Assembly: GCF_022045235.1 (NCBI RefSeq)
Contig: NW_027266264.1
Coordinates: forward strand, 39,990,001 to 40,054,000
Origin: Haliotis cracherodii
Lineage: Eukaryota
Direction: 5' to 3'
Length of the DNA stretch: 64,000 nt
Part shown: one piece after another, positions 2,376-63,803 of the stretch
How positions within the stretch are numbered: the stretch's first letter is position 1
Layout of the letters: each line of letters begins with the position of its first letter
Translations under genes and position numbers: made by a program
The notes under the pieces: model-generated
Told to the model about the DNA's origin: nothing
Databases searched by the model: none
Seen by the model: only the letters and a program-made list of their open reading frames with translations

Positions 2376-2386
2376 GATGACATGAG

Positions 2387-5483: not shown

Positions 5484-5543
5484 CTTCCTTGCATGGATGT
5501 GTTAGCCTGAATGAAGCACCTGATCTGCAGCTTCTCTCTTTTA

Positions 5544-17981: not shown

Positions 17982-18539
17982 GTTTTAAGATAATATGCTA
18001 GCAAGGTGCTCACAATGAATGAATGAGAATATCCCGTAGGTACAGTATGGTTAGGGAACATGGATGGATATGATCAAGAGCGGGAGTTGAGTGTAACATT
18101 GTCCAAAAGCATACATACAGCTATATCTGTAGCACATGAAAGACTCAGAAGCGTATAACAAAAAGTTGATAAAGATGAAAAATGATTGGTAACTGAGCGT
18201 TGGGTATTCATGAAGTCAAGGCTCCACGGATGATAACAATTATCATAGTTCACGTCGACAGCTTAAATTTAGTAAATGTTTCATACTCACACATTTGCAT
18301 TGTGTCCATGTAATTAATCCAGAAAGGTCCAGAGAATCCATAAAGAAAGTATGTGACACAGACAACACAACACAAGACAACAGCGTACCACAGAACAACA
18401 CCGTGGTACTGTGGCCACATGGCTCATCTCTCACTTTGCGCGGGAAGCACGTGCAGATTGTGTGCCTACAAATGTGCTTGTCTTATAACTGGTTATTGTT
18501 CAGTTGTTTTACTGTATAAAGTACATGTCTATTCCTTAA

Positions 18540-27460: not shown

Positions 27461-28652
27461 TGCACACATAATAATAAATGTTTGTGGGCGACTTACCCTG
27501 TTACATATTTACAATGGGAAAAGTTACATATTTACACGCACACGTTCTGATTACGTGCAACTATAATTATAGCCAATGTACAATGTAAGGTGGAAATTAA
27601 CATTTGGGATTAGCATTTTTCAAATAATGGCAGTTTAGTGAATCTGGACATATACACGACATGGCTGCATGGTAATTAGCCTTTTGGCTCAAATGTTCAT
27701 TCAGGTGAGAACAGGTCGTTATTACGCATAGAAAAAAAGACAAGCTATGAATTAGGTTTATTAAGTCATTTCTTCAAGCCTGATCATTCATTGGTATATT
27801 CATATGCCCCACTAACAAGTAACACGTGTCATTTTCATCCAACGTGGTTAGCTGGCTAGTATTGACGAAACCGTTTTAGTACAAACCAACTAACAGATAA
27901 AGAAAACCTGACAACTCGGGTGTTTCATTGCAGGACGCAAGTCCAGTCCCATGTGGTGAGGATCTGATGCAGGACGTACACTGCACATAACCAAACTATG
28001 CACCAGTATAACCACGAAAGGGGTAGTACTGATGTAGTTATGACGTAACCGTTATTTTCTTGATCAATCACAATCTGTGTAAATCTCTACGAGAAAGCTA
28101 TGAGCAAAGTTTAAAATGAGTCTGACCTATTCAGGTTTACCACTGTTTATCATTTCAAGTCTTTAAAACATGGGTGGTCTTGACCTACTCCGTTAACCAA
28201 TGCCCAACCCTCAGTTAATCTAGTTTGTAGACTGGCGGGGACCCGTCTCAGCTGATGGTGGCTGACGTGCAGGTTTGTACATGTCAAGGCGTGGGTGCAC
28301 TGGGAACGTCCAGCTGCATACTTGAAACATGTTGTTGGAGTAGTCTGTTCTTTTTTCTTCCAGGTAAGACCTTTGTACAGTCCACTCAACTAAAGTCCGG
28401 ATCAGGTGAGGTCCTTGTGTTACCACAATACACCAGAGGACCAATGGCTTATTTTGCTATGAGTTCTGCATATCTTTACTGTTGCCATTACCCCCGCCAT
28501 TACCCCCTAACGCGAAAGGGCAATGGCAAATATTAAAACATATGTTTCTTTAAGTAATTATGACGGAAATGAAATGAAGTATAATACCGTGGTGGTTTCG
28601 AATGCAACATCTATCATCTCTTGTTTAAACCAGACTCTTACACATCAGCACA

Positions 28653-31600
28653 ATGCACGTGCGTTTGGTGGGAATGGTTGCCCTAGTGAACGTGGCCTAT
28701 GGTGTGGTGGTACTGAAAGAGGCATCCTATCTGAGACTCCCCAACCGTAACGGCCAGTACGTCGTCAACAGCAGAACAGCCAGGGAGAGCGCCTATGATG
28801 ATGCTAGGAGTTACCTCTACGTTGTTGGTGAGTCCAGCATTTTGTATACCTTGCTGTTCTACTGATGCAGTTTTGGATACATTATTAAAGAATACGAGCG
28901 ACAGATGCCCCTTTTTTACATGTCAGTTTTGTTTTGTCAGGTCGTGACACGGCTATGTTGCACATCATCTCCCTCGCTGACCCCGCCAACCCGCAGGAAG
29001 TCTACACTTACAATTTCAACGTCGCCGCCGACGGCCGTCCTCTGGATGTGGAGCTGTGTCGGGCGGCAGGGGTTACACCCACACTGGCCGTCACCTTTGA
29101 CGGCCAAGATTCTGTGGCTTTTGAGGGACATCTGGTTCTTTATAATCTGTTTGAGAGCAGCTCAGATACACTTACTCCCCTCAACCCAACAGATCCCAGG
29201 ATTACCGGTCAGTTGAATATCTTGGTAACTTAATGTAGAAAGTCCCATCACCATTTTCAGAATACTATGCAGATTTACCTACGATCGTAACATATGTTTC
29301 TAGGTCCGTCAGCACCATACCCGTCCTCGTGGCTTTTAATACAAGTGGTTATCGTCTGAGACCTGCATCACTTCGGGCTTCATCCGCACATTAAGCTGAC
29401 ACACCGTGATATAATTGGAATACAATTCAAAGCGGCGTTAAACCCAACTCACTGACACCTTGGTAATCAGGTCTTCAGGTCCACAATGATAAGCTACAAT
29501 AATCATATGGGTCTCCCTCTTGTCCGAAATGCTTTTCTTCATAATAAATCAGCAGTCAATATAATAACTTTGAAGAGCTTGATATGAAAGAATATAATCC
29601 TATCGATATAGTTGTGACCTGTAATATGATCTGTTCCCGTCCAGTGGGAGCCCATCCTGACAACATGAAGTTCACTAGCGACTGCCGTCGTCTGGTCGTA
29701 TCTAACGAGGGGGAGCCCCGGGTCGTCGATGGCACCTTCTATGACCCCGAGGGGACAGTTTCTGTGGTTACATTCTCCACAACGCCTGGCTCTATACCAA
29801 CAGTCACAACCATCGACTTCAGAAAATTTGACGAACAGAGTGAACTTGTGTAATTTCAAACTGCAAAAGACATTCTACTTATATACTGTTTAAAAAAGTA
29901 GGGGAGCGTGAACTATGAATGCAAATACCAAGTGTTAGAACAGACGGTTTCGTCTGTGCAACTAAACACCAAAACACATCCTACAGTTTGCACGCACTGC
30001 ACGCAGTAGCACCACACACGTGCTTAATGTGTCATTTCTGATTTTGACAGAAAGCCAAATAATCTCTGTGGACCATTGTTTCTGTCAATTTTACTGATTC
30101 TGCTTATCATTCAGTTGTTATTTACTTGATTTCATTCATTGTTTTGTGTATGAACAAGCGAAGTTGCGTTTGCAAAGCGCGGAGCATCTTTAGGCTGCTG
30201 ACATGAACGAAACTGGCAGAAGTCAGCGTGCAATGCCCAATGCGTTCAATGTTTCATAGCCTATGATTAGCAGACTATGGAACAGGTACCAAAAAAAACA
30301 AATAGTTGGCGATCGACCCCGTTCAGGGCGTCTCAATTAAATGACAAGAGTGAAACATCGATTGATCGGAAACCAAGCTGAGCTCAAAGGGCGAATCCAA
30401 TTGCTGCAAACTTAAACTGGAATATGAGATACTGACGATTAGAAATCATCAACATGCACATTATCTCCCTGCTCGACGGCCACGTATTGTGGCATCCCTT
30501 ACAAATCGTAATTTCGCAAACAGATGTCAATGGTGAATACAACCTCGAAACTGGGGTAATCATCCCTGGTCACGTGTCATGTTTTTCACTCTACGCTTCT
30601 TTGCGTGGTAGTATCTGGGCGTCGAAATGAGCGTAAATCCAATGTCCACCTGAGAACCCACGACAGATTTGGCATTGGGCCAGTTTTGGTGTGGGGTTGC
30701 ATCACTATGACTAAACGAACCCCACTCAATATTGTGCAAGGAAACGTCACTGGACAGTGTTATCGGGACACCCTTTGTTGTCCCGTTTGCAAGCTGTGTG
30801 GGTCGACGTTTTGTCTTCCAGGGCAACTCCCATGCTCACCATGCTCGAATCATCAATGCTCACCCTCAGCAGCACAACACCCATAGAATGCCATGGCCAG
30901 CAATGAGCCAAAACCTTTTTCTCAAATCGCTTTTGGGAGACTTATATGCAGTATGCCTCGTGGAGTGAATGAATGTTTGACAAATCATTGTGGTATTACG
31001 CACTACTGAACCGAAAATGTCAACTTTGAAATTTCCCATCTAACCCCGATCATCATTCAAGATTGTTGGTGGTCATGACCTCTACTGTCATACTACATAC
31101 ACTACTGGTTGTAGTGTGTTCCAAATTCATTCATTCATACAACTCTTACTAGAAGCTAATATATCTTACAATTTGGGACATTTTAAGTTATTTCCGGGTA
31201 TCCCCTACTTTTAGAATAGTATATTAGTATGTTCTAGCCTTTCTTAGTGAATTTAACATACACTTGTATATGGTGCATTTTGAGGATTACCTCTCACTAA
31301 ATTTAAGATAACTTCTTTCAGCCCGATACTTGATAAGGGCGTCCGCTACTGGCTTCGCCGTGACCCTAATGACCCTAGCAACATCATCCAGTTCTCCCAG
31401 AACGTGGAGCCGGAATATGTGGCCATCTCACCCAGCAATGGGTTCGCTTACATTACCCTCCAGGTAAGTCAACATGTAACAACCCCATTAATCTATATAT
31501 CTGTGTCTAAACAAGTACATTTGTTTAAGTGACTGAGAGAACTTTGAAGGTGGTGGTATCATGATTGTATAATAATGGCCATATGGAAGAAACGTATTTC

Positions 31601-34600
31601 TAACATTTCAGCGTCTGCACGTTGTTTTTTTTATGCGCCCGTCACATCACATGTAGAGAATGACATCATGCCTTTGGGAGAATGCTTGTTCTAACAGACG
31701 TATCATAAAATTGCCATGTAATATTATGTTACATAGATAAGATATTATGGGAACATGAAATGATACGCAAGAAGATCATTCTAGGAAAATAATGCTATCG
31801 CGAGGATCGACCTGGAGAACTCGGTGATCACCAGCCTTTACGCAATGGGTAACAAGTCCTGGGAATTCCTCACCTTGGACGCAAGCGACAGAGACAACGG
31901 TGAGCACAATGACGTAGACTCAAATTGTGTTGGATTTCGTTTGGCTTACTCACACCAGTTCTGCTTTACGTGAAACTAAGTATACCAGAACTGTTTAACA
32001 CAAGACTACATGTAAACTTGTTTTTATTAAGTTTATTCGTCTGCTATTAGCGGAGAGATTGACAATATGGGCTGTAGTCAGGATACACATACATCCCTTG
32101 TTCCTCAACTGATTGGCTGATTCCCAACTTCCAAGAGGTGTATTTGTATCCTGACTACAACCCATATCGTCAATCTCTCTAATATACACGGGTTGGGAAT
32201 CACCCAAAGGATCTGACAGTTTATGAAATAAACGATTTACAGTCGAGAAATGTCGTAGATCGATTATCGCATACACCACCTCGGTGACTTTAATACAACA
32301 TTGGTGACACAAACTTGTCTGTTGTTGGAGTCAGTATACATACACTGATCTTGTACATGTTTGTATATGACAGTCACTCAAGGAGCAAGATTTCTGGATA
32401 TTGTACTTATAGCACGGGGATTGCAGGTATCGCGATGGCATCGAGGAAAATCCGCAGCTTGTACCAGCCCGACAAAGTCGCCTTCTTCACATGGGGGGCT
32501 GATATACCTTACCTGGTGACAACTGACGAGGGGAGACCAACCAACATCCCCGGGGTCACCTTCCAAGACTACGCTAGAGCGGCATCACTGAGTATGTACA
32601 GTCGACTTCAATAACAATATTTCCGTTGATACTCGTCAACGTAACATAAAAAAAAACATGCACCAGTATCTTATTTTAAAGACTTGTCCACAAGGTGTCT
32701 ATCTACCTCGAATATAGGTGATACTGACTGATCACCATATGCACTCACTGTCCACAAGGTGTCTATCTACTTCGAATATAGGTGATACTGACTGATCACC
32801 ATATGCGCTCACTGCCCACAAGGTGTTTATCTACCTCGAATATAGGTGATACTGACTGATCACCATATGCGCTCACTGTCCACAAGGTGTCTATCTACCT
32901 ATAATATAGGTAATACTGACTGATCACCATATGCGCTCACTGTCCACAAGGTGTCTATCTACTTCGAATATAGGTGATACTGACTGATCACCATATGCGC
33001 TCACTGTCCACAAGGTGTCTATCTTCCACGAATATAGGTGATACTGACTGATCACCATATGCGCTCACTGTCCACAAGGTGTCTATCTACTTCGAATATA
33101 GGTGATACTGACTGATCACCATATGCGCTCACTGTCCACAAGGTGTTTATCTACCTCGAATATAGGTGATACTGACTGATCACCATATGCGCTCACTGTC
33201 CACAAGGTGTCTATCTACCTATAATATAGGTGATACTGACTGATCACCATATGCGCTCACTGTCCACAAGGTGTCTATCTACCTATAATATAGGTAATAC
33301 TGACTGATCACCATATGCGCTCACTGCCCACAAGGTGTCTATCTACTTCGAATATAGGTGATACTGACTGATCACCATATGCGCTCACTGTCCACAAGGT
33401 GTCTATCTACCTATAATATAGGTAATACTGACTGATCACCATATGCGCTCACTGTCCAAAAGGTGTCTATCTACCTCGAATATAGGTGATACTGACTGAT
33501 CACCATATGCGCTCACTGTCCACAAGGTGTCTATCTTCCACGAATATAGGTGATACTGACTGATCACCATATGCGCTCACTGTCCACAAGGTGTCTATCT
33601 ACTTCGAATATAGGTGATACTGACTGATCACCATATGCGCTCACTGTCCACAAGGTGTTTATCTACCTCGAATATAGGTGATACTGACTGATCACCATAT
33701 GCGCTCACTGTCCACAAGGTGTCTATCTACCTATAATATAGGTGATACTGACTGATCACCATATGCGCTCACTGTCCACAAGGTGTCTATCTACCTATAA
33801 TATAGGTAATACTGACTGATCACCATATGCGCTCACTGCCCACAAGGTGTCTATCTACTTCGAATATAGGTGATACTGACTGATCACCATATGCGCTCAC
33901 TGTCCACAAGGTGTCTATCTACCTATAATATAGGTAATACTGACTGATCACCATATGCGCTCACTGCCCACAAGGTGTCTATCTACTTCGAATATAGGTG
34001 ATACTGACTGATCACCATATGCGCTCACTGTCCACAAGGTGTCTATCTACCTATAATATAGGTAATACTGACTGATCACCATATGCGCTCACTGCCCACA
34101 AGGTGTCTATCTACTTCGAATATAGGTGATACTGACTGATCACCATATGCGCTCACTGTCCACAAGGTGTCAATCTACCTATAATATAGGTGATACTGAC
34201 TGATCACCATATGCGCTCACTGTCCAAAAGGTGTCTATCTACCTCGAATATAGGTGATACTGACTGATCGCCATATGCGCTCACTGTCCACAAGGTGTCT
34301 ATCTACCTCGAATATAGGTGATACTGACTGATCACATATGCGCTCACTGTCCACAAGGTGTCTATCTACTTCGAATATAGGTGATACTGACTGATCACCA
34401 AATGCGCTCACTGTCCACAAGGTGTCTATCTACCTATAATATAGGTAATACTGACTGATCGCCATATGCGCTCACTGTCCACAAGGTGTCTATCTACCTC
34501 GAATATAGGTGATACTGACTGATCACCATATGCGCTCACTGTCCACAAGGTGTCTATCTTCCTCGAATATAGGTGATACTGACTGATCACATATGCGCTC

Positions 34601-48048: not shown

Positions 48049-51000
48049 ATGCACGTGTGTTTGGTGGGAATGGTTGCCCTAGTGGGCGTGGCCTATGGTG
48101 TGGTGGTACTGAAAGAGGCATCCTATCTGAGACTCCCCAACCGTAACGGCCAGTACGTCGTCAACAGCAGAACAGCCAGGGAGAGCGCCTATGATGATGC
48201 TAGGAGTTACCTCTACGTTGTTGGTGAGTCCAGCATTTCATATACCTTGCTGTTCTGCTGATGCAGTTTTGGATACATTATTAAAGAATACGAGCGACAG
48301 ATGCCCCTTTTTTACATGTCAGTTTTGTTTTGTCAGGTCGTGACACGGCTATGTTGCACATCATCTCCCTCGCTGACCCCGCCAACCCGCAGGAAGTCTA
48401 CACTTACAATTTCAACGTCGCCGCCGACGGCCGTCCTCTGGATGTGGAGCTGTGTCGGGCGGCAGGGGTTACACCCACACTGGCCGTCACCTTTGACGGC
48501 CAAGATTCTGTGGCTTTTGAGGGACATCTGGTTCTTTATAATCTGTTTGAGAGCAGCTCAGATACACTTACTCCCCTCAACCCAACAGATCCCAGGATTA
48601 CCGGTCAGTTGAATATCTTGGTAACTTCATGTAGAAAGTCCCATCACCATTTTCAGAACACAATGCAGATTTAACTACAATCGTAACTTATCAACACTGA
48701 AATGTCGCTCAATATATGCGAATATAGACTTTGCCGTAGCAAAAGGTGAATGGACAGACATGCCAACATCTGGTGCCTTAAGCGTCTCTTAGGTAATCAG
48801 ATGTCAGGTCCATATTTCACCTTCGTTTTCATCATGTCATATTATGACAGCTTTGAATAGCTAGTAAAAAGAACGTAATCGTATTGTGACCTGTAATATG
48901 ATCTCTTCCCGTCCAGTGGGAGCACATCCTGACAACATGAAGTTCACTAGCGACTGCCGTCGTCTGGTCGTATCTAACGAGGGGGAGCCCAGGGTCGTCG
49001 GTGGCACCTTCTATGACCCCGATGGGACAGTTTCTGTGGTTACATTCTCCACAACGCCTGGCGCTTTACCAACAGTCACAACCATCGACTTCAAGAAATA
49101 CGACGAACAGAGTGAACTTGTGTAAAGCACAAAGGACATTTTCCATTTTATATGAAAAAACACACTTTAAACAGCATTAAAAGATATTTATAATCGATAA
49201 CAGAAATATTTCTTTTTTATTAATGTTTATTTCAGCGGCATTTACTGGTGTTTTTCAGCACGCTTCTGAATCAAGGTGTCCGCTACTGGCTTCGCCGTGA
49301 CCCCAACGATCCCTCCACCATAATCCAGTTCTCCCAGAACGTGGAGCCGGAGTATGTGGCCATCTCACCTAGCAATGGGTTTGCATACATCACCTTGCAG
49401 GCATGTCTTATTTTCTAACTCAGAAAGCATGGACGTACACGTCAGGCTGCATACACTACACGCTACTTGCTAACAAAACTCTTATATCTGTTTAAACATA
49501 GGAAAACAATGCCATTGCAAGGATTGATCTGGAGAACTCTGTGATCACCAGCATATACCCGATGGGCAACAAGAGTTGGGAGTTTTTAAACATAGATGCC
49601 AGTGACAGAGACAATGGTGAGTTGTATGATAAATGATTAACCCTGTTGATTTTCTACGTTGTAGTGAACTTATAAGGCCAACGATAACGGCTATGAAAAT
49701 GATCTAAGATCCTTCTTTTTAAGGGCAGATTGTTTGAGTATCAAAGGGAGGTAAAAGAAAACAAGGGAATACTTCATACAACAGTGTAGATACACATAAT
49801 GATGGTTTACTGTCGCGTTGACATACATCTGACAGTTTACGCATTACTGTCGCGTTGGCATACATATAACGATTTATGCATTACTATCACATTGACATAC
49901 GTTAAAAGTTTATGCATTACTGTGGCGTTGACATACATATAACGGTAATGAATTACTGTTGTGTTGACATACATGTAACAGTTTATGCATTACTGTCGCG
50001 TTGACATATAACGGTTTACGCTTTATTGTCGAATTGACATACATATAACAGTTTATGCATTACTGTGGCGTTGACATACATATAATGGTTATGCATTACT
50101 GTTGTGTTGACATACATATGACAGTTTACGCATTACTGTGGCGTTGACATATAACAGTTTCTGCATTACTGTGGCGTTGACATACATGTATGTAATGGTT
50201 ATGCAGTACTGTGGCGTTGACATACATGTGTGTAATGGTTATGCAGTACTGTTGTGTTGACATACATGTGTGTAATGGTTATGCATTACTGTGGCGTTGA
50301 CATACATGTATGTAATGGTTATGCATTACTGTGGCGTTGACATACATGTATGTAATGGTTATGCATTACTGTGGCGTTGACATACATGTATGTAATGGTT
50401 ATACATAACTGTGGCGTTGACATACATGTAAGTAATGGTTATGCATTACTGAGGCGTTGACATACATGTGTGTAATGGTTATGCATTACTGTGGCGTTGA
50501 CATACATGTATGTAATGGTTATGCATTACTGTGGCGTTGACATACATGTGTGTAATGGTTATGCATTACTGTGGCGTTGACATACATGTATGTAATGGTT
50601 ATGCATTACTGTGGCGTTGACGTACATGTATGTAATGGTTATGCATTACTGTGGCGTTGACATACATGTAAGTAATGGTTATGCATTACTGTGGCGTTGA
50701 CATACATGTATGTAATGGTTATGCATTACTGTGGCGTTGACATACATGTATGTAATGGTTATGCATTACTGTGGCGTTGACATACATGTATGTAATGGTT
50801 ATGCAGTACTGTGGCGTTGACATACATGTGTGTAATGGTTATGCATTACTGTGGCGTTGACATACATGTATGTAATGGTTATGCGGTACTGTTGTGTTGA
50901 CATACATATGACAGTTTACGCATTACTGTGGCGTTGACATACATATAGCGGCGTACGCATTACTATCGCGTTTACATACATGCAAGAGTTTATGCATTAC

Positions 51001-53586
51001 TGTCGCGTTGACAAACATATAAGTGTTTACGCATTACTGGCGCGTTGACGTACATACAACGGTTTACGCATAACTGTCGCGTTGACATACATATAATGGT
51101 TACGCATTACTGTCGTGTTGACATACAGTTTACACANNNNNNNNNNNNNNNNNNNNNNNNNNNNNNNNNNNNNNNNNNNNNNNNNNNNNNNNNNNNNNNN
51201 NNNNNNNNNNNNNNNNNNNNNNNNNNNNNNNNNNNNNNNNNNNNNNNNNNNNNNNNNNNNNNNNNNNNNNNNNNNNNNNNNNNNNNNATCGCGATGGCAT
51301 CGAGGAAAATCCGCAGCTTGTACCAGCCCGACAAAGTCGCCTTCTTCACATGGGGGGCTGATATACCTTACCTGGTGACAACTGACGAGGGGAGACCAAC
51401 CAACATCCCCGGGGTCACCTTCCAAGACTACGCTAGAGCGGCATCACTGAGTATGTACATTTCGGCAACTAGGTCAGTGTGAAAGGTGGGTTCGGGGTGG
51501 TGTTGGGGGTGGAGGTGGGGTGGGGTGGTTGGGGGTTGCATAAATTGATGCATAAATTGTGAGATGCTCATAATTCCCCAAGGATGAAAATATAATTCAG
51601 GAAGCAAAGTGAAATACCTATATTCCCACACAAGGTATATTTTCATGCTCTTCGTGAAAAATGATAGTTTGCCCCCGGCGCATGTCGGTAATCGGGGAAA
51701 GCTCGTTCTAATGAGACGAGACATGAAGACCAATTCAAATCATTGTCTAACGTATGCTCCTGCCAGGTTACGTTTTACTGAAGCGAATATGAATATACTC
51801 CTCACCAAGCGTTTAAATGTTCATTATGAATCTCTAACAGATATTGTATTCTATACGGTTCTATTCTGTTTTCAGCATGGAATGTAAATGATCCTGAACT
51901 GAACTCTCAACTGAAATCAAACGCCGAACTTGGTAATTAAATATAACAATACGTGTTTTGCATGTGGTACACATAGCCATGCCTACAGTAGCACTGCTTG
52001 GCATACGAGATACACAAACTATCTGGTTGATATTCTAACTGCTGTAACAGTATGCCGACAGAACCAGTGAAACCTCTTTCCAAACTTTCAAAATGGGCGG
52101 TGCTGCATTTTCCTTTACTTTCAACCAGACGCACCAATTTTCTTTAGTTCCAGTAGGTGGTCGCAGGTGATATCCAATACTGTTGACATTGATTGTGTCG
52201 TGCAGGTCGCCTGTACGTCTCTAATGTTGACGGGTTTGATGACACGCCGAACGTTCCCTATGCTTTCGGTGGACGTGGGTTCTCAATCTGGAACACACAG
52301 TCGATGGAGCGAACCTGGGAGAGCGGTGACGAGCTGGAGAGGTACAGTCGCCAGTACTTCCCTAATACATTCAATGGTAACTGCGCCACCTTCTCGCAAA
52401 CCCCCGCGCAAGAGATGGACGCCAGATCCACGTGGATGGTGAGTTGTTTCCCGCTCCACAGACAGTCAGGAGATGCACCTGTGACTAAACCTCATCATAC
52501 TGACTGACTGAGTATGGTTTTACGCCGCTTTTAGCAATATTCCAGCAATATCACGGCGGGGGACACCAGAAATGGGCTTCACACATTGTACCCATGTCGG
52601 GAATCGAACCCGGGTCTTCGGCGTGACGAGCGAATGCTTTAACCACTAGGCTACCCGACCGCCCCAAACCTCATCGTAAGCTAAATAAAACAAATCTGGA
52701 AGGTTACGCTGCTTATTTTTGAAGATATTGATAAATATGGTTTTGTAATATTAAAATTGTTCACCTAGGGTCCAGAAGTAAACTCTGTAGCCATTGGAGA
52801 TTTCGGAGGGCGTTCAGTGATGGTTCTTGGGAGCGGCAGGAACGGCCTACTCTACGTATATAGCTTACAGCCAACCATCAGTAACCCCACCCCAGAGTTC
52901 CAGAGTGTGCACAGAGCCGGGGAAATAGATGCAACCTGGACAAATCTGTACGCCAGGGAGGACATGGGAGATGCCATTATATCTGACATCAAGTAAGTCT
53001 CACCACTCAGAGGTGAGGTGAGGTGAAATAGGTTTTAACTTNNNNNNNNNNNNNNNNNNNNNNNNNNNNNNNNNNNNNNNNNNNNNNNNNNNNNNNNNNN
53101 NNNNNNNNNNNNNNNNNNNNNNNNNNNNNNNNNNNNNNNNNNNNNNNNNNNNNNNNNNNNNNNNNNNNNNCTGATTGCACTAGTTTTAAAGTGCAAGCCC
53201 CCTGAGACACCATTTCAAAGTTTATCATGAATACCCCACTCAGATACAGTAGATGGACTCCAAGTCGGTCACTGCTTGTCTTATGCTCCTAATGCCGACT
53301 GCCAAGGTCGGTAACAATTTTAGCGTCTTTTAACGCTTGACACAGCCGGGGATCGCATCTACGCGGTCACCAATCAGACATAGTGATCACTCTATGATGA
53401 TTTCAGTACAGTGTACGAATCTAAAACCTGACAAGTTAAGTGTGTTTGTCATCACTGTGTTTCAGAATTTCGTCAGTGGGAACCCCTATCGTAATCGTGA
53501 CTTCTGAGGCCAGTGGAAGCATATCAGTGTACACGCTTGCTGACGAGACATGGCCTGCACGGACACTGGACGATTCTCAGGAATAA
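48049..53586 (+). CDS. msp130: msp130-like secreted protein, copy B, 10 coding exons, about 567 aa
   Basis: Exons 48049-48223, 48337-48603, 48917-49121, 49259-49400 (GC donor), 49502-49616, about 51286-51450 (acceptor hidden in N gap), 51876-51932, 52206-52438, 52769-52992, 53466-53586. Exon sizes 1-9 equal those of copy A. AATAAA at 53633. Confidence 0.88.
49805..51136. repeat. Minisatellite, 40-bp homogeneous core with shorter diverged flanking units, in intron 5 of copy B
   Basis: Unit ATGCATTACTGTGGCGTTGACATACATGTATGTAATGGTT. Confidence 0.96.
52497..52665 (-). mobile_element. Full-length young tRNA-derived SINE with 10-bp target-site duplication, in intron 8 of copy B
   Basis: Reverse strand: GGGGCGGTCGGGTAGCCTAGTGGTTAAAGCATTCGCTCGTCACGCCGAAGACCCGGGTTCGATTCCC (A/B boxes), body, then (CAGT)n tail. 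Flanked by AAACCTCATC at 52487-52496 and 52666-52675. Confidence 0.92.
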
Positions 53587-53779
53587 TCCACACTGGCCAT
53601 CAGATGAAAATGTAGCCTTAGCAATGATGTTTAATAAACGTTTTGAAACATATCGCAGTTAATCATTTGAACGTTGGTTTGTGTGGATTATTTTCACCTT
53701 GGATATTAAATGTTATGTACGACCGTTTTGAGGACAGTTCTCTTTGCACATAAAAAAAACAACATTCTGACCAAGTAGA

Positions 53780-55605
53780 ATACTGCGCGAGTGGAACTGG
53801 TGTATGTACCATGGTAACAACGGGGAGATACAAAGTAGGTCGTACACTACACGAGTGGAACTGGTGTATGTGTCATGGTACAGACGGGGAGATACAAAGT
53901 AGGTCGTGCACTACTCGAGTAGAACTGGCGTATGTACCATGGTAACAACTGGGAGATACAAAGTAGGTCGTACAATAAACGAGTGGAACTGGTGTATGTA
54001 CCATGGTAACAACGGGGAGATACGAAGTAGGTCGCACACTACACGAGTGGAACTGGTGAATGTTCCATGTTTCCATCGGGGAGATACAAAGTAGGTCGAA
54101 AACTACTCGAGTGGAACTGGTGTATGTACCATGGTAACAACGGGGAGATACAAAGTAGGCCGCACACTACACGAGTGGAACTGGTGAATGTTCCATGTTT
54201 CCAACGGGGAGATACAAAGTAGGTCGTACAATTAACGAGTGGAACTGGTGTATGTACCATGGTACAAACGGGGAGATACAAAGTAGGTCGCACACTACAC
54301 GAGTGGAACTGGTGTATGTACCATGGTAACAACGGGGAGATACGAAGTAGGTCGTACACCACTCGAGTGGAATTGGTGTATGTACCATGGTACAAACGGG
54401 GAGATACGAAGTAGGTCGTACACTACTCGAGTAGAACTGGTGTATGTACCATGGTAACAACGGGGAGATACGAAGTAGGTCGAAAACGTCTCGAGTGGAA
54501 CTGGTGTATGTACCATGGTACAAACGGGGAGATAGAAAAGTAGGTCGCACACTACACGAGTGGAACTGGTGAATGTTCCATGTTTCCATCGGGGAGATAC
54601 AAAGTAGGTCGAAAACTACTCGAGTGGAACTGGTGTATGTACCATGGTAACAACGGGGAGATACAAAGTAGGCCGCACACTACACGAGTGGAACTGGTGA
54701 ATGTTCCATGTTTCCAACGGGGAGATACAAAGTAGGTCGTACAATAAACGAGTGGAACTGGTGTATGTACCATGGTACAAACGGGGAGATACAAAGTAGG
54801 TCGCACACTACACGAGTGGAACTGGTGTATGTACCATGGTAACAACGGGGAGATACGAAGTAGGTCGTACACCACTCGAGTGGAATTGGTGTATGTACCA
54901 TGGTACAAACGGGGAGATACGAAGTAGGTCGTACACTACTCGAGTAGAACTGGTGTATGTACCATGGTAACAACGGGGAGATACGAAGTAGGTCGAAAAC
55001 GTCTCGAGTGGAACTGGTGTATGTACCATGGTACAAACGGGGAGATAGAAAAGTAGGTCGCACACTACACGAGTGGAACTGGTGAATGTTCCATGTTTCC
55101 AACGGGGAGATACAAAGTAGGTCGTACACTACTCGAGTGGAACTGGTGTATGTACCATGGTACAAACGGGTGGATACGAAGTAGGTCGTACACTACAAGA
55201 CTGGAACTGGTGTATGTACCATGGTTACAACTGGGAGATACAAAGTAGGTCGTACACTACACGAGTGGAACTGGTGTATGTACTATGGTAACAACGGGGA
55301 GATACAAAGTAGGTCGAAAACTACTCGAGTAGAACTGGTGTATGTACCATGGTACAAACGGGTGGATACAAAGTAGGTCGCACACTACACGAGTGGAACT
55401 GGTGCGTGTACTATGGTAACAACGGGGAGATACAAAGTAGGTCGAAAACTACTCGAGTGGAACTGGTGTATGTACCATGGTACAAACGGGTGGATACAAA
55501 GTAGGTCGCACACTACACGAGTGGAACTTGTGCATGTACCATGGTAACAACGGGGAGATACAAAGTAGGTCGTACACTAACCGATTGGACCTGGCGTATG
55601 TACTA
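53780..55605. repeat. Minisatellite, about 64-bp unit, about 28 copies, with 513-bp higher-order periodicity
   Basis: Unit CGAGTGGAACTGGTGTATGTACCATGGTAACAACGGGGAGATACAAAGTAGGTCGTACACTACA. Near-identical spurious ORFs recur at a 513-bp offset (54039/54552, 54295/54808). Confidence 0.96.
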
Positions 55606-58374
55606 CCCTGGTGGGAATGGGGGATAATTTAAACAGCTTCGTGACGTCAGCCCATTATGACGTAACTACTTTAATAAAGTACAGTCGGCGCCTTTGATCT
55701 TTTACCGAAGCATCTTAGAAACGGACGGACAGACAGACAGACAGACAGGTTTGTGTCATGTGCGCTGAATTAGGACCACGTGCCACCACTAGTGTCTTAG
55801 TGTCTAGTGTCTAGTGTCTTAAGGTTAAGAATATAAACCACTTTCCTTTGAACTTATCATTGTCTTAAAATAGAATATGTATTCTGAAAGCCCTACCCAG
55901 TGCTTAAGGATGAGTTAAAGTTAACGCCACTGGGGCTTTGTCTGTGAATGCCCTCTAAATATTACCGAAAGCTTTCTAAACGTGTACAGTATTAAGTCGG
56001 TCTGGGATTTTATCTATTTCTCATTTCAAAATAATTGTTTTTTCCCAAATTGTTTTCCCCAATGAAAAGATTCTTGAATAAGCCAGTTTGGGTTTCACTA
56101 ATTTTATCGGGGAGGACTTGTAAGTTATCGGAGATGTGCTTTATGATAAGTTTGTTTATTTGTTTGTTTGGGTTTTTTTATTTAACGCCGTAACCGGCAA
56201 TATTCCAGCTATATGACGGCGGTCTGTAAAAATCGAGTATGACCAGACAATCAGTGATTGACATCATGAGCATCGATCTACACAATTAGGAAACGAGTAG
56301 ATTTATAGGATGCTAAATCTGCAAGACAAAAGTGTCGATCGCGATCTTCTTTAGGAGTACACGTTATAATATACTTTGTCTTTAGAAGTTTAACTTGTTG
56401 ATCACTTCGTGTTTATTTTTAATGCATCTCCATACAAGGAGCCAATATCTCTCCAGATGAACCATAAACAAATAGGCTGAAAAACATGAAACCCTGGACT
56501 TTTTTGTCTAATTATTCATTTTATGTAATGTTGGCGCACATTCATCTGCATTATTATCAAAGTGTATTTACCTACTTCATCGCTAATATATAATTTATTG
56601 TGTAACGACAATGTTTCATCTAGTATATCCGACATACTTATAAACTGTCCATTTTACAATTAATTATTTCTCTCAGAAGTTCTTATTGACATGATTTCGT
56701 TTTTCCAAATTCAGAAACGACTCCATAATATTTTCAGCTTCTTCATATCATTTTGGTTTTACTCCTCAACGTTTCCCTTTATTCTTACTATTTCACATTG
56801 TTTCTAATTGTGGCATCTTCAAATGTAGGTTTGTTTTATCACCTGTGAGTCTGTCATAGATAGACTTGAACTTGCCAATCTTGAACTCCAGCATATTCTC
56901 CGCTTTATCAACATCTATTTTTACATTGTACAAAAATGTAATTGTTTCAGGCCTTGTTATCATCTTCAATAAATCAAACAGGAATTGACCATTGGCATCA
57001 ATTAAATTATCTATGTCCCTTGATACACGATAATCATACATCGTACCTTGCTACAAGAATACAAGAAACATAAATGAGTGATAACTTTTGTGGCTTATTC
57101 CCACAGAAGGATATATCAGGTGACAGAATGTCTCCTGAAACAAGAAGCTACCCAAAACTACTTCGTTTGATGAGGTTACTTTGCCTTCGTGTATGTGTCT
57201 CGATTAAACATTCTTCAATTTCAGTAAGTTGGTATTTTGTTGTGTATAATTATAGTTGTCCTTTAAAAGATCCTGAACAACATTCATATCTCCTCCTGGG
57301 AATTGCTTTCATTCTAATTGAAGATAGTTGATAATCGACAAGCTTCAATAATAAAAACTAGGATTAAAATGAGGCCCTGACGATCGACATTTATGTCGTG
57401 CCTTTGATATTCAAATCCATTCCTCATAACGATTTTGACTCATGCACAATGTGCGCTACCATAACAAAATCACACTACATGTCTCCTTGCAGCTGCCCCG
57501 GTATTTATATTATGTAAGCTACAATGACTTTGATACAGTAATCTATACCACATGACTGTTGTCGTCCTAGCCAAACACCACGACTGTCCATGTTCACAAG
57601 TTTCTATATGGAAACACATGCCACAAGTCAAGGTTAGCATGTAGTGACCACATCGGTCACCAGCATTGCCACGTGTTTTACTGGTATCACTTGTTGTCAC
57701 TCAAGGAGCGACACAGACACACAAAGTGATTATCTGTGGAAGGCATGGCGTGGGATCGGTGGCACCTACCTGTCTGTGAGTCGAGATAACCCCAGCAGGC
57801 GGAACAGGTGATCCTATTCCCAACTAATCTCTGTCTCCGGGTTTCTAACAACGGTATTATCAAAGGTCATTCCAGTGTCAACCTGTAAACTTCTAGGGAA
57901 TAAAAATCATACAGGTCACTCTTGCTTAAAATTGCTATCATTTTTTATTTCAATTGGTAAGTTGAGGTCCTTCAAATGTTATTAAAAATTGCAAAACATT
58001 GGTAACATGTAATATGTGGTAAACCTTTTTTTAACTTTCTTAGAAATAGCGTAAGCCAAATAAGTGTACTTTATCAACAAAACAGGTTACAAAACATGTA
58101 CATACTACATCTCCAGTGGTAAGAATGTGCTCGGATCTGAGCAGAGATTGTGGAGTTTCAAGTTACAAAAAGACATTCCACAAACAGGCCCAGTTACTGC
58201 AGAGGGGCCTGGGGATTGCTTCTCTTGGAGACATGTAACGGAGATCATATTACCAAGCAAAAACCACTGTGTAACAAAATAAACACACTAACTACGTATG
58301 TAAAGAGGCTACAGGTGTAGTGTGAGGCAACATATGGCTGGTTATATATATCACGAAACAAGCGGTATATGTCA

Positions 58375-58605
58375 CGTTACATGAGCCATATAGGTCACGA
58401 AACGTGAACCATATATACCATGAAACATGAACCATATATATCACGTAACATAAACCATATATACCATGAAACATGAACCATATATACCATGAAACATGAA
58501 CCATATATATCACGTAACATGAACCATATATACCATGAAACATGAACCATATATATCACGTAACATAAACCATATATACCATGAAACATGAAGCATATAT
58601 ATCAC
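58375..58605. repeat. Short AT-rich tandem repeat (about 21-23 bp)
   Basis: CATGAAACATGAACCATATATAC and CACGTAACATGAACCATATATA variants. Confidence 0.85.
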
Positions 58606-59499
58606 GGTGTTTTGCTGTATGGTTACATGCATTTCGTTACTTCCAACGATACTGCAACTGAAGCATAAAGTGGCAAAAGTGACGTCACAATAGAGAGGAA
58701 TGGTTTGATGGAAGTAAATTGTGAATTCTTGACGATTCACACTTTTGTATGGTAGCACTTGTCATTCACTTGTAAAACCAATACACTGTTGTTGCTATTA
58801 TGGTTTGAGACGCAGATTTACTGTTTGATGTTTACTAAAAAATATAAACATACATTTTATCCTATAAACGATTAGTGCTGATGTCAGAAAATAAGTTTGA
58901 TATTCATTGATAACACGTATTTGGATTTCAGATATCAGTGAAACAGAATATGAGAAATCAACGACATGTGTATACATCTTAAACAGAATTCATTTTTTGT
59001 TAATATAATATCGAAGATATTATGAATTCCAAAAGGTATTCAAGAACAATTATATACCTTTTGTCAAGGATTATTTTTCAAAGTGAAAGCTGTTTTGAAC
59101 ATCTCAAACACATCTGTAACGGAATACTTAAACACAATCACTGGAGTAAGGCAAGTAAGTCTCTTGAGTCCATTGTTATTTTCACCGTTTATTGTAGAAC
59201 TAATAGTGATGCTTTAAGAATCAGTGCTGAGAGAACTTTATCAGTATTTTCTAGAAATTATATCTCTTTAATGGGGATTAAATGGAATTTAGATTAGATG
59301 CGTGTATTACTTTTCAGGAAAATGGTGGTATCGTTAAGGGACACCAGGGGACATGGAAATATGACGACATGGACAAGAAGACTTCAACTAACTACATGTT
59401 TTTTGGTGTGCTTTTAAATTAAATTAAGAAAGTGTATAACGCATTTTCCAATTAACAACTGCTCATATGTACTTAGACCATGATTCTTCTAGTTGAAGG

Positions 59500-59905
59500 C
59501 TCTATTGAAGAGACAGGTTTTGCGTGTCTTTTTAAAGTATGTCAATTTTTCTGATTTCTTGTGGCAGATTGTTCCAGAGCAAGCATGTTAAAATTACCTA
59601 TAGCCTTGTGTTTTGGTACGTGACTTTGGCACCACCAGCAGATGTTGATCTTTTGATCGGAGAGTACGTGCTGGCTTGTATGGTACTATCGGTGAGTAGT
59701 TTAAGTCTCTATTGGAGGGAAGCGTTCTCCCTCAGGTGTTCTTGTCGCCTCGACGATGACATATCTCTCCTGATTTGTCCGAGGTCGTAAATATGGTAAT
59801 ATGGTTATCATATGATTATCCAAGCGGTGGATCGGATCCATAACGACGCCCAGGTTTCTTGCACTATGGCTGGGCGTGATTACACTCTCTCCAATGCTGG
59901 ACATA
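59500..59905 (-). mobile_element. L2-type LINE RT fragment
   Basis: SIGESVITPSHSARNLGVVMD, plus a downstream LWNNLP..IRK...FKK remnant. Confidence 0.65.
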
Positions 59906-60679
59906 CTCTCTCAAACTCTCATCAAGTTTCATGATGGAACAAAGCTGACAACATATTAACACCAAAGGACACCAAAACACTCTTCAGTATTGACGGTCGA
60001 CAGAAGAACATACACCAGATATACTGTTTAAAATATTTGACACACAAATGGGATCTATTTTGTTATATGGATCTGATAAATGTGTACTGACAGAAAATCG
60101 ATCATTGAACGTTTTCAGTCAACATTTTGTAAATGTGTAGGATCTCATAGAAGCCATGTTTAACATGTTCTTTGAGAATCTGAATGTCTGACTTCGCCTG
60201 ACAGATATTCTAAAAAGTATAATAGCTAATGAATCTAGACAATCAAAACCAAAGAAGAAGTTGTTTACAAGAGCTCGTATTTGTATACGATTGTGCCCGT
60301 TTTATAACATTCTAAGAATCAAAAGTCTTCCACTTTGTTATCGCTTACAGTCCCGAAATATTTGAATTTGTTTATCATGAGTAATATTCAATCGTGTAGA
60401 GAAATTGTGCCAACTTGCTTAAAGTAAGGTAAAATTGATTGCGGAATGAATTCATACAATTAACTTTATGTATTAGACAATTTTGAATTCTGGGTATCAC
60501 TGGATGAATTATCTATATTTTAAAACGCACACTAAAAATAACAGGGCGTATCATTGAGGTTTTGAAATTGCTTTGATATGTAAAATAATGTTGCAAATAC
60601 ACATTATCCTTGCGACGAGTGTCCACCTTGACATGTTAGCTGCAATAGCGAAACTTCTCTGGCCCCAGTAACGTAGCAC

Positions 60680-60813
60680 ATATATATAAACCGACTGATA
60701 CATTTATCTGCCATTATCTTATCTGAGACGACGGTCCGTGAATCTGCCTAACTACTGAAGGCAGAGGGCTTCTGAAACCTTCTTTCAACAGACCGCTCAT
60801 TTTTATAGTACAG
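60680..60813 (+). promoter_or_regulatory. Candidate TATA box and non-coding first exon of msp130-like copy C
   Basis: TATATATAAA at 60681-60690, then about 120 bp later a strong donor CAG|GTAAGA at 60813, about 1.5 kb upstream of ATG 62284. Confidence 0.35.
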
Positions 60814-62283
60814 GTAAGATGAAAAAACACATACTACTTAATGTTCAAGGGGTATGATTGAGTAGGTCACGTCACGTGGTTATGAAATGCTGAAGCTACC
60901 TGGCAGGTGACGTCTTCTGAAGAGGTGAACAGACTGTTTCAAATATTCAGTTTTGTACTCATAAGGTGGTCATTTTACAAACACTAAGATGATAGATTCA
61001 TATTCGATCGTGCTCCACGCCAGGAGAAAAAATCACCATCTGCTTTGACGCTAGGCCTCGCTGACGTAGCTTCATTCACGTGGATGAGTAGTAGCCAAAT
61101 ACTCATTCAGTTCACCTCGGTGGAGCAAGCATTATTGTTTTGTATTTTGGAAATATACCTACTGTACATTTGGTGCCTATAAATGTTACAATTACGGGGT
61201 TTGACAAAACCTCTAAATCGAAAAAATTTGGTTTATCATCATTCTTAAAGAAAAAAATGAGAAAATAATCGCGAAGTCTTTGGTAATAGCAGACGTGACG
61301 AGTAAAATTGATTGCTTTCATGCAATGACGCCATCTAGCGCAGATAACCTCGGAAAATAGTTATCACTATCCGCTAAAGAATCTCTATGATTATCATACG
61401 AATTCTTGGAAAACACATACAAGTCGGCCTGAACGAACATCTTGACGTCATTATGTTACGTCACCTGCTACTTACACAAGTGACTCTGTTCCCTCGTTGA
61501 GTTACCACACTAAATGTTCGTAGTAGCAAGAGGGATCTTATTTGGCACACACAAATATTTCACCAAAACTACGTCTCTGTAACTTGTAATGATATTTTTA
61601 CCTTCGTCAAAACCCATTCAGCCAGTAAAATTCCCGACACACCGTTAGTGACACATGTTACTCCATGTACACTCCATGTACACTCCATGTACACTCCATG
61701 TACACTCTATTATTATGACATCCTAACGTTGCACAGACAAGATGTTCAATCTTTATGACGTACCAGGCGTGACGTCACAGTACCTGACAGACCTAGGGCA
61801 CGTTGCAAGCCACGAATCGCTTAGAGAAGGCAAATTAATCGCTCATCTCAGGGTCTGCAACGCAACCCTAGAGAAGAGCCATATGCTGAGTTTGAATTTT
61901 AGAAAATGGCAACCGGTCCAATTTTAGAAAAAAAGTTCCGAAGAAAATATTTCCTCTGACGGTGATGCGGTCATATGGAAAAATGTGGCTTAACGTAGGT
62001 TAGATACTTAATGGACCTTTCAAGTCAGGATTGTAAGATGTCCTAGTAGAATGCGTTTTTATACAGGTGACAAATTCATACTTTATGCGGTACAACAAAC
62101 ACATTCGTGGAAACTCATTCATTTCAAACGTCTCTCTGCTTATTGAAGCAACTATTTGATTATATACACGTCGACGAACCGTACATATATTTCCTTTCCC
62201 TGTCATGTTACTTTTTGCTTACTCACAAAGAGTATCAACATTCTACCCCAGTGCGCCCGACCCGTGCCGACCCACGAGTAGCC

Positions 62284-63803
62284 ATGTCCTATGCTTTTGT
62301 TGTGTTGCTGTGTGCGACGCTGTGTGGAGCTGTGCCCGTGCTCAAATTTCAAAGCTGGCTCCCTATTCCTGACGCCTCCAACCGCCTTCTTCCTTTCCTG
62401 GGAACCGCAGACAAGGTGGCCTGGGACGACCAGGAGAACTACCTCTATGTAATAGGTAATGTACATTATTGGTGTGTTTGTTTGTTGTTTAACGCCACGC
62501 TCAGCAATATTACAGCTATATGACGGCGTTCTGTAAGTAATCGAGTCTCGACCAGACAATCCAGTGATTGATATCATGAGCATCCATCTACGCAATTGGG
62601 ATCCGAAGACATGCATCAACCAAATCAGCAAGCCTGACCACCCGATCCCGTTAGTCGCCTCTTAGAACAGGCATAGTGGCCTTTTACGGGAAGCATGGGT
62701 TGCTGAAGATGTATTCCAACCCGTTATTGGCTACACAAGGCTGGTCATTTTACGAAATACATAATTCTGATGGTTATTTGAAATGGCGTCCCACATATCA
62801 TTATCTTCAATCATTTAATATTTGCAGAACTTCCACTAAGCCCCACTATTAAATATTATTCCGAGCTTGTAGTGTCACTTCATTTCATACATTGTGTTTC
62901 AGGGGCCCAATCTGAGACTCTACATATTGTGGATCTGGTGAATCACAGCGATCCCCATATTGTGTTCACTCGTGTATTCAGCGAGATCACAGATGGTATC
63001 CCAAAGGCTATTGCATTCTGTCGTAGCCCCCAGCGTGAAGAATTGGTCGTAGCGTTCTCCGCCAAGGAAAGGCTGAATGAGGGCCATGTTGAGGTCTTCA
63101 AGCCGTTTCTCCGATTCGACCAGACACTTACACTTCTCGGGCGTGTATCAAGTACAGTAACGTCAACTATCACAAATTCGAACATTACGAAGTAACAGCT
63201 ATTGCGAACAAGAAATTATAAGTTTGTAATAATCAGATAGCCTATCACATCATACATGTGTCATGTTTATGCCTGTTCTACACTATCTACTATGCAACAA
63301 CATGTGTCTATTATTATACAGTCCGAGGGTCTTGATTTAGCATATTTGGCATTTACTTTAAAGTTTTAAAAACGTCATTTGTTTAATTACATTTACTTAA
63401 CCGAGAATCGTGAAAAGTTCGTACCAGGCGCCATCTTGTTTTCTAACAGACCAGTCAATATTCATCACGTTAGAGGTCAATACTGATTATGTGACGAGTA
63501 AATATTCAAGGTCAGTGTCATTCACATGATTTCGGGGTCTGCATTGGAATGTATCGTTTCGTCACGTGGTACGGATTAACCAATGGAATTGCAAAGTTTG
63601 TAATAGAGGCATAACAACTTCTTATATTTGTCAGCTGAATCGGACCCATCTGCTGTAAAGTTTGACAGTACCTGCTTTCATTTTGTCGTGGCCTGCGAGG
63701 GTCTGCCTGGCAAGAGAAACAACGCGTTTGAGGATCCTTTGGGTCACGTGGACGTGTTTGAACCCCAAGTGAATGGCTGGACCAAACTCACCATCAATTT
63801 CCA
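62284..63803 (+). CDS. msp130: Divergent msp130-like paralog, copy C; first three coding exons, continues beyond window
   Basis: Exons 62284-62455 (signal peptide..AWDDQENYLYVIG), 62903-63151 (TLHIVDL..DGIPKAIAFCR..EGHV) and 63635-63803 (DPSAVKFDSTCFHFVVACEGLPG..FEDPLGHVDV..TINF). Intron phases 1,1,2 are the same as in copies A and B. Confidence 0.85.
62472..62722 (-). mobile_element. SINE in intron 1 of copy C (same family as 12242-12512)
   Basis: Colinear with 12242-12512 over about 250 bp, including the (TTTG)n tail. Confidence 0.8.

What the first reader, a model, noticed from the sequence alone, without database searches (positions are those of the whole stretch)
28653..63803. Tandem cluster of three msp130-like genes, a bacterial-derived family linked to biomineralization
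Seen: three same-strand genes with signal peptides, shared intron phases and choice-of-anchor-I motifs. A and B are complete; C is much more divergent. Established: msp130 proteins are skeletal matrix/cell-surface proteins in sea urchins, are patchily distributed in animals including molluscs, resemble bacterial alkaline-phosphatase-related proteins, and have been proposed to be horizontally acquired. Inference: a lineage-specific expansion, fully intronized, possibly serving shell formation. This is the main host-gene system in the window and is invisible as whole ORFs in the track.
Basis: partly seen in the sequence, partly recalled or inferred. Interest (0 to 1): 0.7.

Follow-up and report, generated by a model that had tools for sequence, protein, structure and literature searches.

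The report
Abalone cluster of unanchored MSP130 genes
This is a real, spliced cluster of four abalone msp130-family genes from a mollusc branch that lacks the membrane-anchor tail and several conserved acidic residues of its microbial phosphatase relatives, so the proteins are likely secreted binding proteins rather than working enzymes, and a role in shell building is untested and was not supported by two shell proteomes.

Summary
Observation confirmed and extended. A (562 aa) and B (567 aa) are complete ten-exon genes. C continues past the window and a fourth gene, D, follows. [quoted passage not shown] All hit choice-of-anchor I; A folds as a seven-bladed propeller. The interpretation needs three corrections. 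(1) The cluster is not purely an abalone expansion: A/B and C/D split before abalones and limpets did (AU p=9e-6). (2) It lies in a mollusc-only clade (100/100) where 0 of 30 rows have a GPI-type tail and 0 of 26 complete rows keep three acidic residues found in 16 of 17 other animal and 10 of 10 prokaryote rows. The family shares the published motifs of atypical alkaline phosphatase PhoAaty. (3) A/B-type peptides were not found in an abalone shell proteome, nor two limpet relatives in a limpet one. Also: A and B show exon-wise gene conversion, and RefSeq's B–C fusion is likely an artefact. Known family, modestly new variant.

The parts
28653..40123 (+). Gene A, 10 coding exons (28653-28827, 28941-29207, 29645-29849, 31322-31463, 31785-31899, 32427-32591, 37778-37834, 38273-38505, 38591-38814, 40018-40123); 562-aa MSP130/choice-of-anchor I propeller without GPI-type tail
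   Evidence: identical to P0009; PF22494 137.5 bits; model pLDDT 92.9
48049..53586 (+). Gene B, 10 coding exons (48049-48223, 48337-48603, 48917-49121, 49259-49400, 49502-49616, about 51286-51450, 51876-51932, 52206-52438, 52769-52992, 53466-53586); 567 aa, about 91% identical to A; GC-AG intron 4
   Evidence: exon 9-10 junction and read-through of its own stop to 53650 in one contig with no mismatches
60742..60813 (+). Non-coding first exon of gene C, spliced GT-AG to about 62252
   Evidence: joint 60810-62249 (cut +3) in runs X1 and X3
62284..63803 (+). Gene C, first three coding exons (62284-62455, 62903-63151, 63635-63803); continues to about 72824 in window-continued numbering
   Evidence: junctions
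28640..29295 (+). A-side tract homogenised with B (48036-48691): exon 1, intron 1, exon 2 and start of intron 2; 98% over 656 bp
   Evidence: blastn
32429..32600 (+). A exon 6 tract, 100% identical to B (51288-51459) over 172 bp
   Evidence: blastn
38268..38510 (+). A exon 8 tract, 98% identical to B (52201-52443) over 243 bp
   Evidence: blastn
59318..59405 (+). Stretch that RefSeq model XP_071093374.1 uses as a linker exon to fuse B to C (end approximate); likely not a real exon
   Evidence: B ends at its own stop and C has its own first exon

Best explanation
The locus is a tandem array of four spliced MSP130/choice-of-anchor I genes in an abalone, encoding predicted secreted seven-bladed beta-propellers of a mollusc-only branch that lacks the GPI-type tail and has lost part (A, B) or most (C, D) of the acidic ring that likely forms the metal site of the microbial PhoAaty phosphatases, so they likely work as soluble, catalytically weak or dead calcium- or phosphoester-binding proteins of secreted fluids rather than as anchored or shell-embedded matrix proteins. 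Steps. Shown: gene structure, family and four-gene array. Shown by tree: A/B and C/D diverged early in gastropod history or before, and each then duplicated in the abalone line. Shown: A and B keep exchanging sequence in their longer exons. Shown by alignment: loss of tail and of E44, R340, E458, E476 and E525 (A numbering). Inferred from strand positions in the model: these residues line one face of the propeller around its axis. Inferred: this ring is the catalytic metal site. Inferred, untested: loss of catalysis and a binding role outside the shell matrix.
For: Gene models and identity to P0009; C and D beyond the window. Model pLDDT 92.9, pTM 0.92; best solved match 2z2n_A, Z 31.5, rmsd 2.3 over 291 residues, tied with many WD40-type propellers. 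Tree: 30-row mollusc-only clade at 100/100 holding A-D, apart from echinoderm, hemichordate, amphioxus, annelid, brachiopod and GPI-tailed mollusc rows; AU p=9e-6 against one abalone clade. Of 21 near-invariant polar positions, A and B keep 14, C 8 and D 9. Medians among complete rows: 12.5 in the clade (26 of 30 rows), 16 in other animals (17 of 18), 21 in prokaryotes (10 of 12). Acidic residues at all of 458/476/525: 0 of 26, 16 of 17 and 10 of 10. Hydrophobic tail: 0 of 30 against 9 of 18 other animal rows. Family-phosphatase link: the four PhoAaty motifs of Lin et al. 2015 are the same motifs; recombinant dinoflagellate PhoAaty is a Ca/Mg/Mn-activated phosphatase (PMC6723241); 11 of 27 long homologues I picked carry phytase, phytase-like, 5'-nucleotidase or PhoX domains; Pho-box-like repeats precede 14 of 58 usable bacterial loci (of 80) against 0.5 expected (consensus recalled). 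No A/B-type motif in the H. laevigata shell files while perlucin rings in 24 files; Lottia 227977 and 152377 absent with a positive control present. Conversion: four-fold sites differ at 2 of 177 in exons 1,2,3,6,8 and 35 of 76 in exons 4,5,7,9,10, whereas A against the unlinked C56b copy differs at 9 of 159 and 0 of 90.
Against: No member of the family has a solved structure, so the active-site assignment rests on conservation and strand position, not on measured geometry. A and B keep the four published PhoAaty motifs almost intact (only N335D and D338R in the fourth) and gain D94, so they may still be active. The 21 positions were picked by eye from the prokaryote columns, so the prokaryote score is partly by construction, although independent rows mostly score 20-21 too. 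The clade is fast-evolving and the tree used LG+G4 without a mixture model, so long-branch attraction could inflate it; animal rows came from searches seeded with an abalone protein. Shell-proteome blanks depend on the search databases of those studies and on motif conservation: 8 of 11 motifs occur in the H. asinina relative and touch 6 of 22 predicted peptides, and C-type was probed with one motif only. MSP130-like proteins do occur in other mollusc shells (Cepaea, 0.53 in its abundance column; Euhadra), clade undetermined. GPI and signal peptides were judged by hydropathy only.
Confidence: 0.55

Rival explanations
1. Shell-formation genes: A-D are secreted by the mantle and chaperone calcium to, or become part of, the shell, as proposed for sea-urchin MSP130.
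For: Family tracks biocalcifying bilaterians and is expressed in mineralising cells elsewhere (PMC11878542); MSP130-like proteins in land-snail shells; proteins are acidic, pI about 4.5. A role in extrapallial fluid would not need to leave peptides in the shell.
Against: No A/B-type motif in abalone shell files and no hit for two limpet clade members; no GPI-type tail; the abalone genes that resemble the echinoderm type sit elsewhere, on contig C2; the family also occurs in non-mineralising animals.
Confidence: 0.27
2. A and B are still active secreted phosphatases with a remodelled site and shifted substrate, for example for removing phosphoesters that poison carbonate growth or for digestion; only C and D are pseudo-enzymes.
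For: A/B keep 14 of 21 positions and the four published PhoAaty motifs nearly intact; the substitutions at 458/476/525 are the same in every abalone A-like row, and N458 and G476 are also in the four limpet and Gigantopelta rows, which suggests constraint.
Against: Three glutamates that are acidic in 10 of 10 complete prokaryote rows and 16 of 17 other animal rows are all non-acidic in A/B, and E44 and R340 are lost too.
Confidence: 0.15
3. The A/B similarity reflects a very recent duplication or an assembly collapse, not gene conversion.
For: Two exons are 100% identical between A and B, which read mis-mapping during polishing could cause.
Against: Other exons differ at 35 of 76 four-fold sites and most introns do not align. 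The same exon-by-exon mosaic is in the H. rufescens orthologues. Contigs carry A-type alleles in exon 8.
Confidence: 0.05
4. B and C form one two-barrel protein, as RefSeq XP_071093374.1 (1175 aa) models.
For: The RefSeq model exists; two-barrel MSP130 models are reported in oyster and sea stars; bacterial homologues with several domains are common.
Against: The join would need an intron starting at B's stop codon, not GT. A contig runs through B's stop to 53650. C has its own 5' exon and signal peptide. H. rufescens B and C are separate RefSeq proteins.
Confidence: 0.05

Closest known systems
Sea-urchin MSP130 and bilaterian MSP130 family (Chess, Foley and Ettensohn 2025, PMC11878542)
   Same: Signal peptide, choice-of-anchor I domain, seven-bladed propeller, nine coding introns (the paper reports nine conserved junctions), tandem duplication.
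   Different: No GPI-type tail; separate mollusc-only clade; E458, E476 and E525 non-acidic. The paper sampled two bivalves, lists several without GPI, and never mentions gastropods, abalone, phosphatase or gene conversion.
Atypical alkaline phosphatase PhoAaty / choice-of-anchor I proteins (PF22494, NF038117; Lin et al. 2015, PMC4548154)
   Same: Same four motifs in A and B; about 30% identity to bacterial members over most of the length.
   Different: Seven of 21 near-invariant polar residues changed in A/B, 13 in C and 12 in D; intron-rich animal genes; activity untested.
[quoted passage not shown]
   Same: A is identical to the first; B and C are contained in the second.
   Different: The second fuses B and C, which the contig evidence contradicts; 'cell surface' is not supported by the C-termini.
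PhoX and Psip1 propeller phosphatases; Sphingobium phosphotriesterase 5HRM
   Same: Propeller enzymes; PhoX and Psip1 hold metals with acidic residues; 5HRM appears among the Foldseek matches of both models.
   Different: PhoX and Psip1 have six blades; 5HRM does not stand above generic WD40 propellers (TM 0.45-0.50, 11% identity), so it is only an analogy.

Membership tests
MSP130 (bilaterian) | Choice-of-anchor I domain | tested here: met
   PF22494 137.5, 135.4 and 87.7 bits against cut-off 32; NF038117 E 6e-78 to 3e-59 but under its cut-off of 300
MSP130 (bilaterian) | N-terminal signal peptide | tested here: met
   Hydrophobic N-terminal window 2.4-3.0 in A and in the B and C orthologues; hydropathy only
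MSP130 (bilaterian) | Seven-bladed beta-propeller | tested here: met
   Model of A, pLDDT 92.9; Z 31.5, rmsd 2.3, 291 aligned to 2z2n_A
MSP130 (bilaterian) | Groups with animal MSP130 proteins | tested here: met
   All 48 animal rows form one side of a 100/100 branch against 12 prokaryote rows
MSP130 (bilaterian) | Conserved bilaterian intron positions | tested here: inconclusive
   Nine coding introns; 8 of 9 map within one residue between A, C and two unlinked abalone paralogues, one from the other clade (exon ends from tblastn). Echinoderm genes were not compared directly.
Sea-urchin-type cell-surface MSP130 | C-terminal GPI-anchor signal | tested here: not met
   A ends 11, B 16, C 7 and D 7 residues after the last strand with no hydrophobic tail; 0 of 30 clade rows have one
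Sea-urchin-type cell-surface MSP130 | Expression in mineralising cells or presence in the biomineral | tested here: inconclusive
   Not found in H. laevigata shell files; tissue of the coded runs not given
PhoAaty atypical alkaline phosphatase | Four published motifs (PD..NEG, EPEY, QENN, NEGD) | tested here: met
   Met in A and B with N-to-D and D-to-R changes in the fourth; degenerate in C and D
PhoAaty atypical alkaline phosphatase | Full set of near-invariant acidic and polar residues of prokaryote members | tested here: not met
   A/B 14, C 8, D 9 of 21; none acidic at 458, 476 or 525. The set was defined here, not taken from print.
PhoAaty atypical alkaline phosphatase | Metal-activated phosphomonoesterase activity | not testable with these tools
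   Needs recombinant protein

The most novel reading that the evidence does not exclude
MSP130 is a horizontally acquired calcium-dependent phosphatase (PhoAaty) that is still catalytic in its GPI-anchored form in skeleton-forming cells, and molluscs evolved a second, secreted pseudo-enzyme branch from it, to which this cluster belongs, with a graded loss of the metal ring from A/B to C/D in one locus. That would make the open question of what MSP130 does biochemically directly testable with one set of abalone paralogues, and would decouple part of the family's expansion from biomineralisation.
Probability: 0.35. Interest if true: 0.68.

Novelty: new variant of a known kind. Interest (0 to 1): 0.42.

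Why it matters
MSP130 is a leading case of an ancient bacteria-to-animal gene transfer tied to skeletons, yet its biochemical function is untested (PMC11878542). This genome holds at least 12 family genes that span near-complete (contig C2), partly eroded (A, B) and largely eroded (C, D) versions of a predicted metal site, which gives a natural series for an enzyme assay. It also cautions that counting msp130 genes as shell genes, or trusting two-barrel RefSeq models, can mislead. The genes themselves are already annotated, so the gain is in interpretation.

Tried and rejected
PDB sequence searches with A and with a prokaryote profile found no family member, only generic propellers. Fold searches of A and of a bacterial homologue gave only generic propellers; PhoX and phytase were not among the listed rows, which does not exclude kinship. 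No RNA holder was on record for the searched stretch; runs are coded and 'RNA' is a guess. The RefSeq linker exon had no cover in 4 of 4 runs, which alone proves nothing. Two runs with the same species label as X1 held almost none of A's words (0.00, 0.04) and little or no C junction (depth 4.4 and 0 against 3186): at most a weak hint of restricted expression, since contig depth cannot rank expression. A first genome search ran in the wrong frame and was repeated. An ER-retention reading of A's C-terminal -TEL was dropped because B and several relatives end otherwise. Name searches for msp130 or mesenchyme in the H. laevigata text and 12 of 27 files, and in the Lottia papers, were blank. Which Lottia protein Shimizu et al. 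count as shell MSP130 could not be found (file cut, figure not text). The scan's earlier findings returned nothing in three look-ups. Gene D's exon borders were only roughly placed. The gene at C2:4.76 Mb was recovered only in part (438 of 579 query residues).
Full report
Observation. I read 28000-63999 and built exon models by coordinates. A has ten coding exons, 28653-40123, giving 562 aa. B has ten, 48049-53586, giving 567 aa; its intron 4 starts GC and the acceptor of exon 6 lies under an N stretch. C shows three coding exons, 62284-63803. Phases agree: 1,1,2,0,1,1,1,0,2. Four of 9 single exons of A hit PF22494 in order, each below the cut-off. Whole proteins pass it widely: 137.5 bits for A, 135.4 and 87.7 for the H. 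rufescens orthologues of B and C. Model A is identical to P0009, RefSeq XP_071116429.1 of Haliotis cracherodii, so the window is abalone and the gene is already annotated.

Extent. The window is G000:C1:39990001-40054000. In 200 kb downstream, C continues for seven more exons to about 72824 in window-continued numbering, a fourth gene D spans about 81422-100005, and no further copy appears. Genome searches and local tblastn on fetched stretches give at least 12 family genes: A-D, two A-like copies on C56, single genes at C1:33.5 Mb, C1:6.0 Mb and C2:4.76 Mb (partly recovered), and three complete genes plus first-exon fragments at C2:51.6 Mb. This is a lower bound.

Transcription. Contigs from runs guessed to be RNA bridge B exon 9 to 10 (GT-AG, no mismatches) and continue through B's stop to 53650. 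A-type ends appear at the junctions of exons 7-8, 8-9 and 9-10, though these could come from C56-type paralogues or from other species. C has a non-coding first exon at about 60742-60813, and junctions 1-2, 2-3 and 3-next are bridged in X1 and X3. RefSeq fuses B and C into a 1175-aa protein (P0010). That join needs an intron starting at B's stop codon, and H. rufescens has separate B and C proteins, so I judge the fusion an artefact. Tissue is not given.

History. A 60-row tree (IQ-TREE, LG+G4) puts A-D in a 30-row clade of gastropod and bivalve proteins at 100/100. That clade is apart from sea urchin, hemichordate, amphioxus, annelid and brachiopod rows and from a second mollusc clade (98/98) that holds GPI-tailed Mytilus, Crassostrea and Patella proteins and the abalone C2 genes. 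A/B group with limpet and Gigantopelta proteins (99/99); C/D group with Patella vulgata and Littorina proteins (100/99). Forcing the 13 abalone A/B/C/D-like rows together is rejected (p-AU 9e-6); that group was named after the tree had been seen. The split between A/B and C/D is therefore older than abalones. Rows came from 120 of 506 hits and 150 of 3333, of which I named 20 by look-up; unnamed animal-like rows were left out of the tree. Chess et al. 2025 already note at least two ancestral mollusc MSP130s. Eight of nine intron positions map within one residue between A, C and paralogues of both clades; echinoderm introns were not compared directly.

Gene conversion. A and B differ at 2 of 177 four-fold sites in exons 1, 2, 3, 6 and 8, but at 35 of 76 in exons 4, 5, 7, 9 and 10. 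A and the unlinked C56b copy differ at 9 of 159 and 0 of 90 in the same two sets. The longest identical run is 411 nt, reached by 0 of 10,000 permutations. The shared tracts end within a few bases of exon edges, except one 656-bp block. H. rufescens shows the same mosaic at protein level. The four shortest exons (57-142 nt) and the first half of exon 9 escape. Tract-length limits explain most of this (inference); selection is not excluded.

Protein. The model of A (pLDDT 92.9, pTM 0.92) is a seven-bladed propeller; its best matches are generic (Z 31.5, rmsd 2.3, 291 aligned). No family member is solved. In 55 non-animal homologues a set of polar columns is nearly invariant, and I picked 21 by eye. 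By DSSP, seven of them sit at the start of the first strand of each blade and most others just after the second strand, so they likely line one face (inference). A and B keep 14, C 8 and D 9. None of 26 complete clade rows is acidic at all of 458/476/525, against 16 of 17 other animal and 10 of 10 prokaryote rows. None of 30 clade rows has a hydrophobic tail, against 9 of 18 other animal rows; the tails of the abalone C2 rows were not resolved.

What the family works like. The four PhoAaty motifs in the supplement of Lin et al. 2015, which includes sea urchin, limpet, oyster, amphioxus and acorn-worm rows, are these same motifs. Recombinant Amphidinium PhoAaty is activated by Ca, Mg and Mn. 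Eleven of 27 long homologues that I selected carry other phosphate-scavenging domains. Pho-box-like repeats precede 14 of 58 usable bacterial genes (80 fetched) against 0.5 by shuffling (consensus recalled). The microbial ancestor was thus likely a phosphate-starvation phosphatase and the ring likely its metal site. The recent msp130 paper proposes calcium binding and never mentions phosphatase. I recall that Ettensohn 2014 noted the likeness to bacterial alkaline phosphatases; I did not read it.

Shell role. In the H. laevigata shell study, six motifs gave no hit in 24 of 27 files and five more gave none in 27 of 27, while perlucin rang in 24 files. Eight of the 11 motifs occur in the H. asinina relative, touching 6 of 22 predicted peptides, and C-type was probed by one motif. 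Lottia 227977 (A lineage) and 152377 are absent from five supplement files in which a control protein is present. Against this, MSP130-like proteins are in land-snail shells, clade unknown, and a role in extrapallial fluid would escape shell proteomics. The shell inference is open but unsupported.

Verdict. A real cluster of a known family, in a form that lacks the anchor and part of the predicted metal site. Gene structure is near certain, the clade and the conversion are well supported, and the pseudo-enzyme binding role is a moderate inference (0.55). Interest 0.42.

Literature seen. PMC11878542: text parts 1-4 of 7, a term search, supplement part 1 of 5. PMC4548154: passages, section 19, supplementary figure 2 text. 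PMC6723241, PMC11098088, PMC4897951, PMC6368272, PMC4023409, PMC3374290, PMC8194122, PMC6003135, 10.1101/2025.04.09.648040 and 10.1101/2022.09.07.507049: passages. Supplement searches: PMC6003135, PMC4094399, PMC6368272 (file cut). Ettensohn 2014 and Szabo and Ferrier 2015: seen only as citations. Ten searches listed no paper whose title or abstract start describes abalone msp130 genes, loss of these residues or conversion. I saw 40 of 135 listings and 30 of 34; subscription journals and bioRxiv supplements are outside the library, so this is not proof of absence from print.

Noticed in passing
window 1-7300, minus strand: Polinton/Maverick-like element, GC about 48%: integrase with chromodomain (2822-4078; rve E 1e-12), A32-type packaging ATPase (6674-7297; E 1e-6), and ORFs at 2-874 and 1418-2417 that resemble capsid genes (recalled likeness, no Pfam hit). 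Observed only.
   Followed up: partly
window 8411-10018 and about 13500-18000, minus strand: Two LINE fragments: endonuclease plus reverse transcriptase (E 7e-18, 3e-10), and a broken second copy with weak endonuclease hits.
   Followed up: partly
window 49400-49401 (gene B intron 4): GC-AG intron where the same intron of A is GT-AG.
   Followed up: no
window 26559-27460, 32685-35437, 40271-41693, 50053-51127, 53788-55603: Minisatellite arrays with 52-, 64-, 31-, 40- and 64-bp units inside introns and between the genes, plus a long GT-rich tract at about 42560-45520.
   Followed up: no
G000:C2:51574000-51652000 (L025-L032, L040): A second tandem msp130 cluster: three complete genes keeping 15-17 of the 21 positions, two lone first-exon matches and a duplicated exon-4 fragment on the opposite strand.
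   Followed up: partly
G000:C56:57592000-57637000 (L042-L046): Two intron-containing A-like copies on another chromosome-scale contig; 0 of 90 four-fold differences from A in the unconverted exons of one copy, so a recent DNA-level duplication.
   Followed up: partly
window-continued 65057-65142 and 85484-85569 (L001, L003): Exon 5 of C and D is 91% identical over 86 bp while the other aligned exon stretches are 68-85%; possibly an older conversion tract.
   Followed up: no
window 52500-52665 and 62470-62680: High-copy interspersed repeats inside introns of B and C that draw thousands of contigs; SINE-like by recalled likeness.
   Followed up: no
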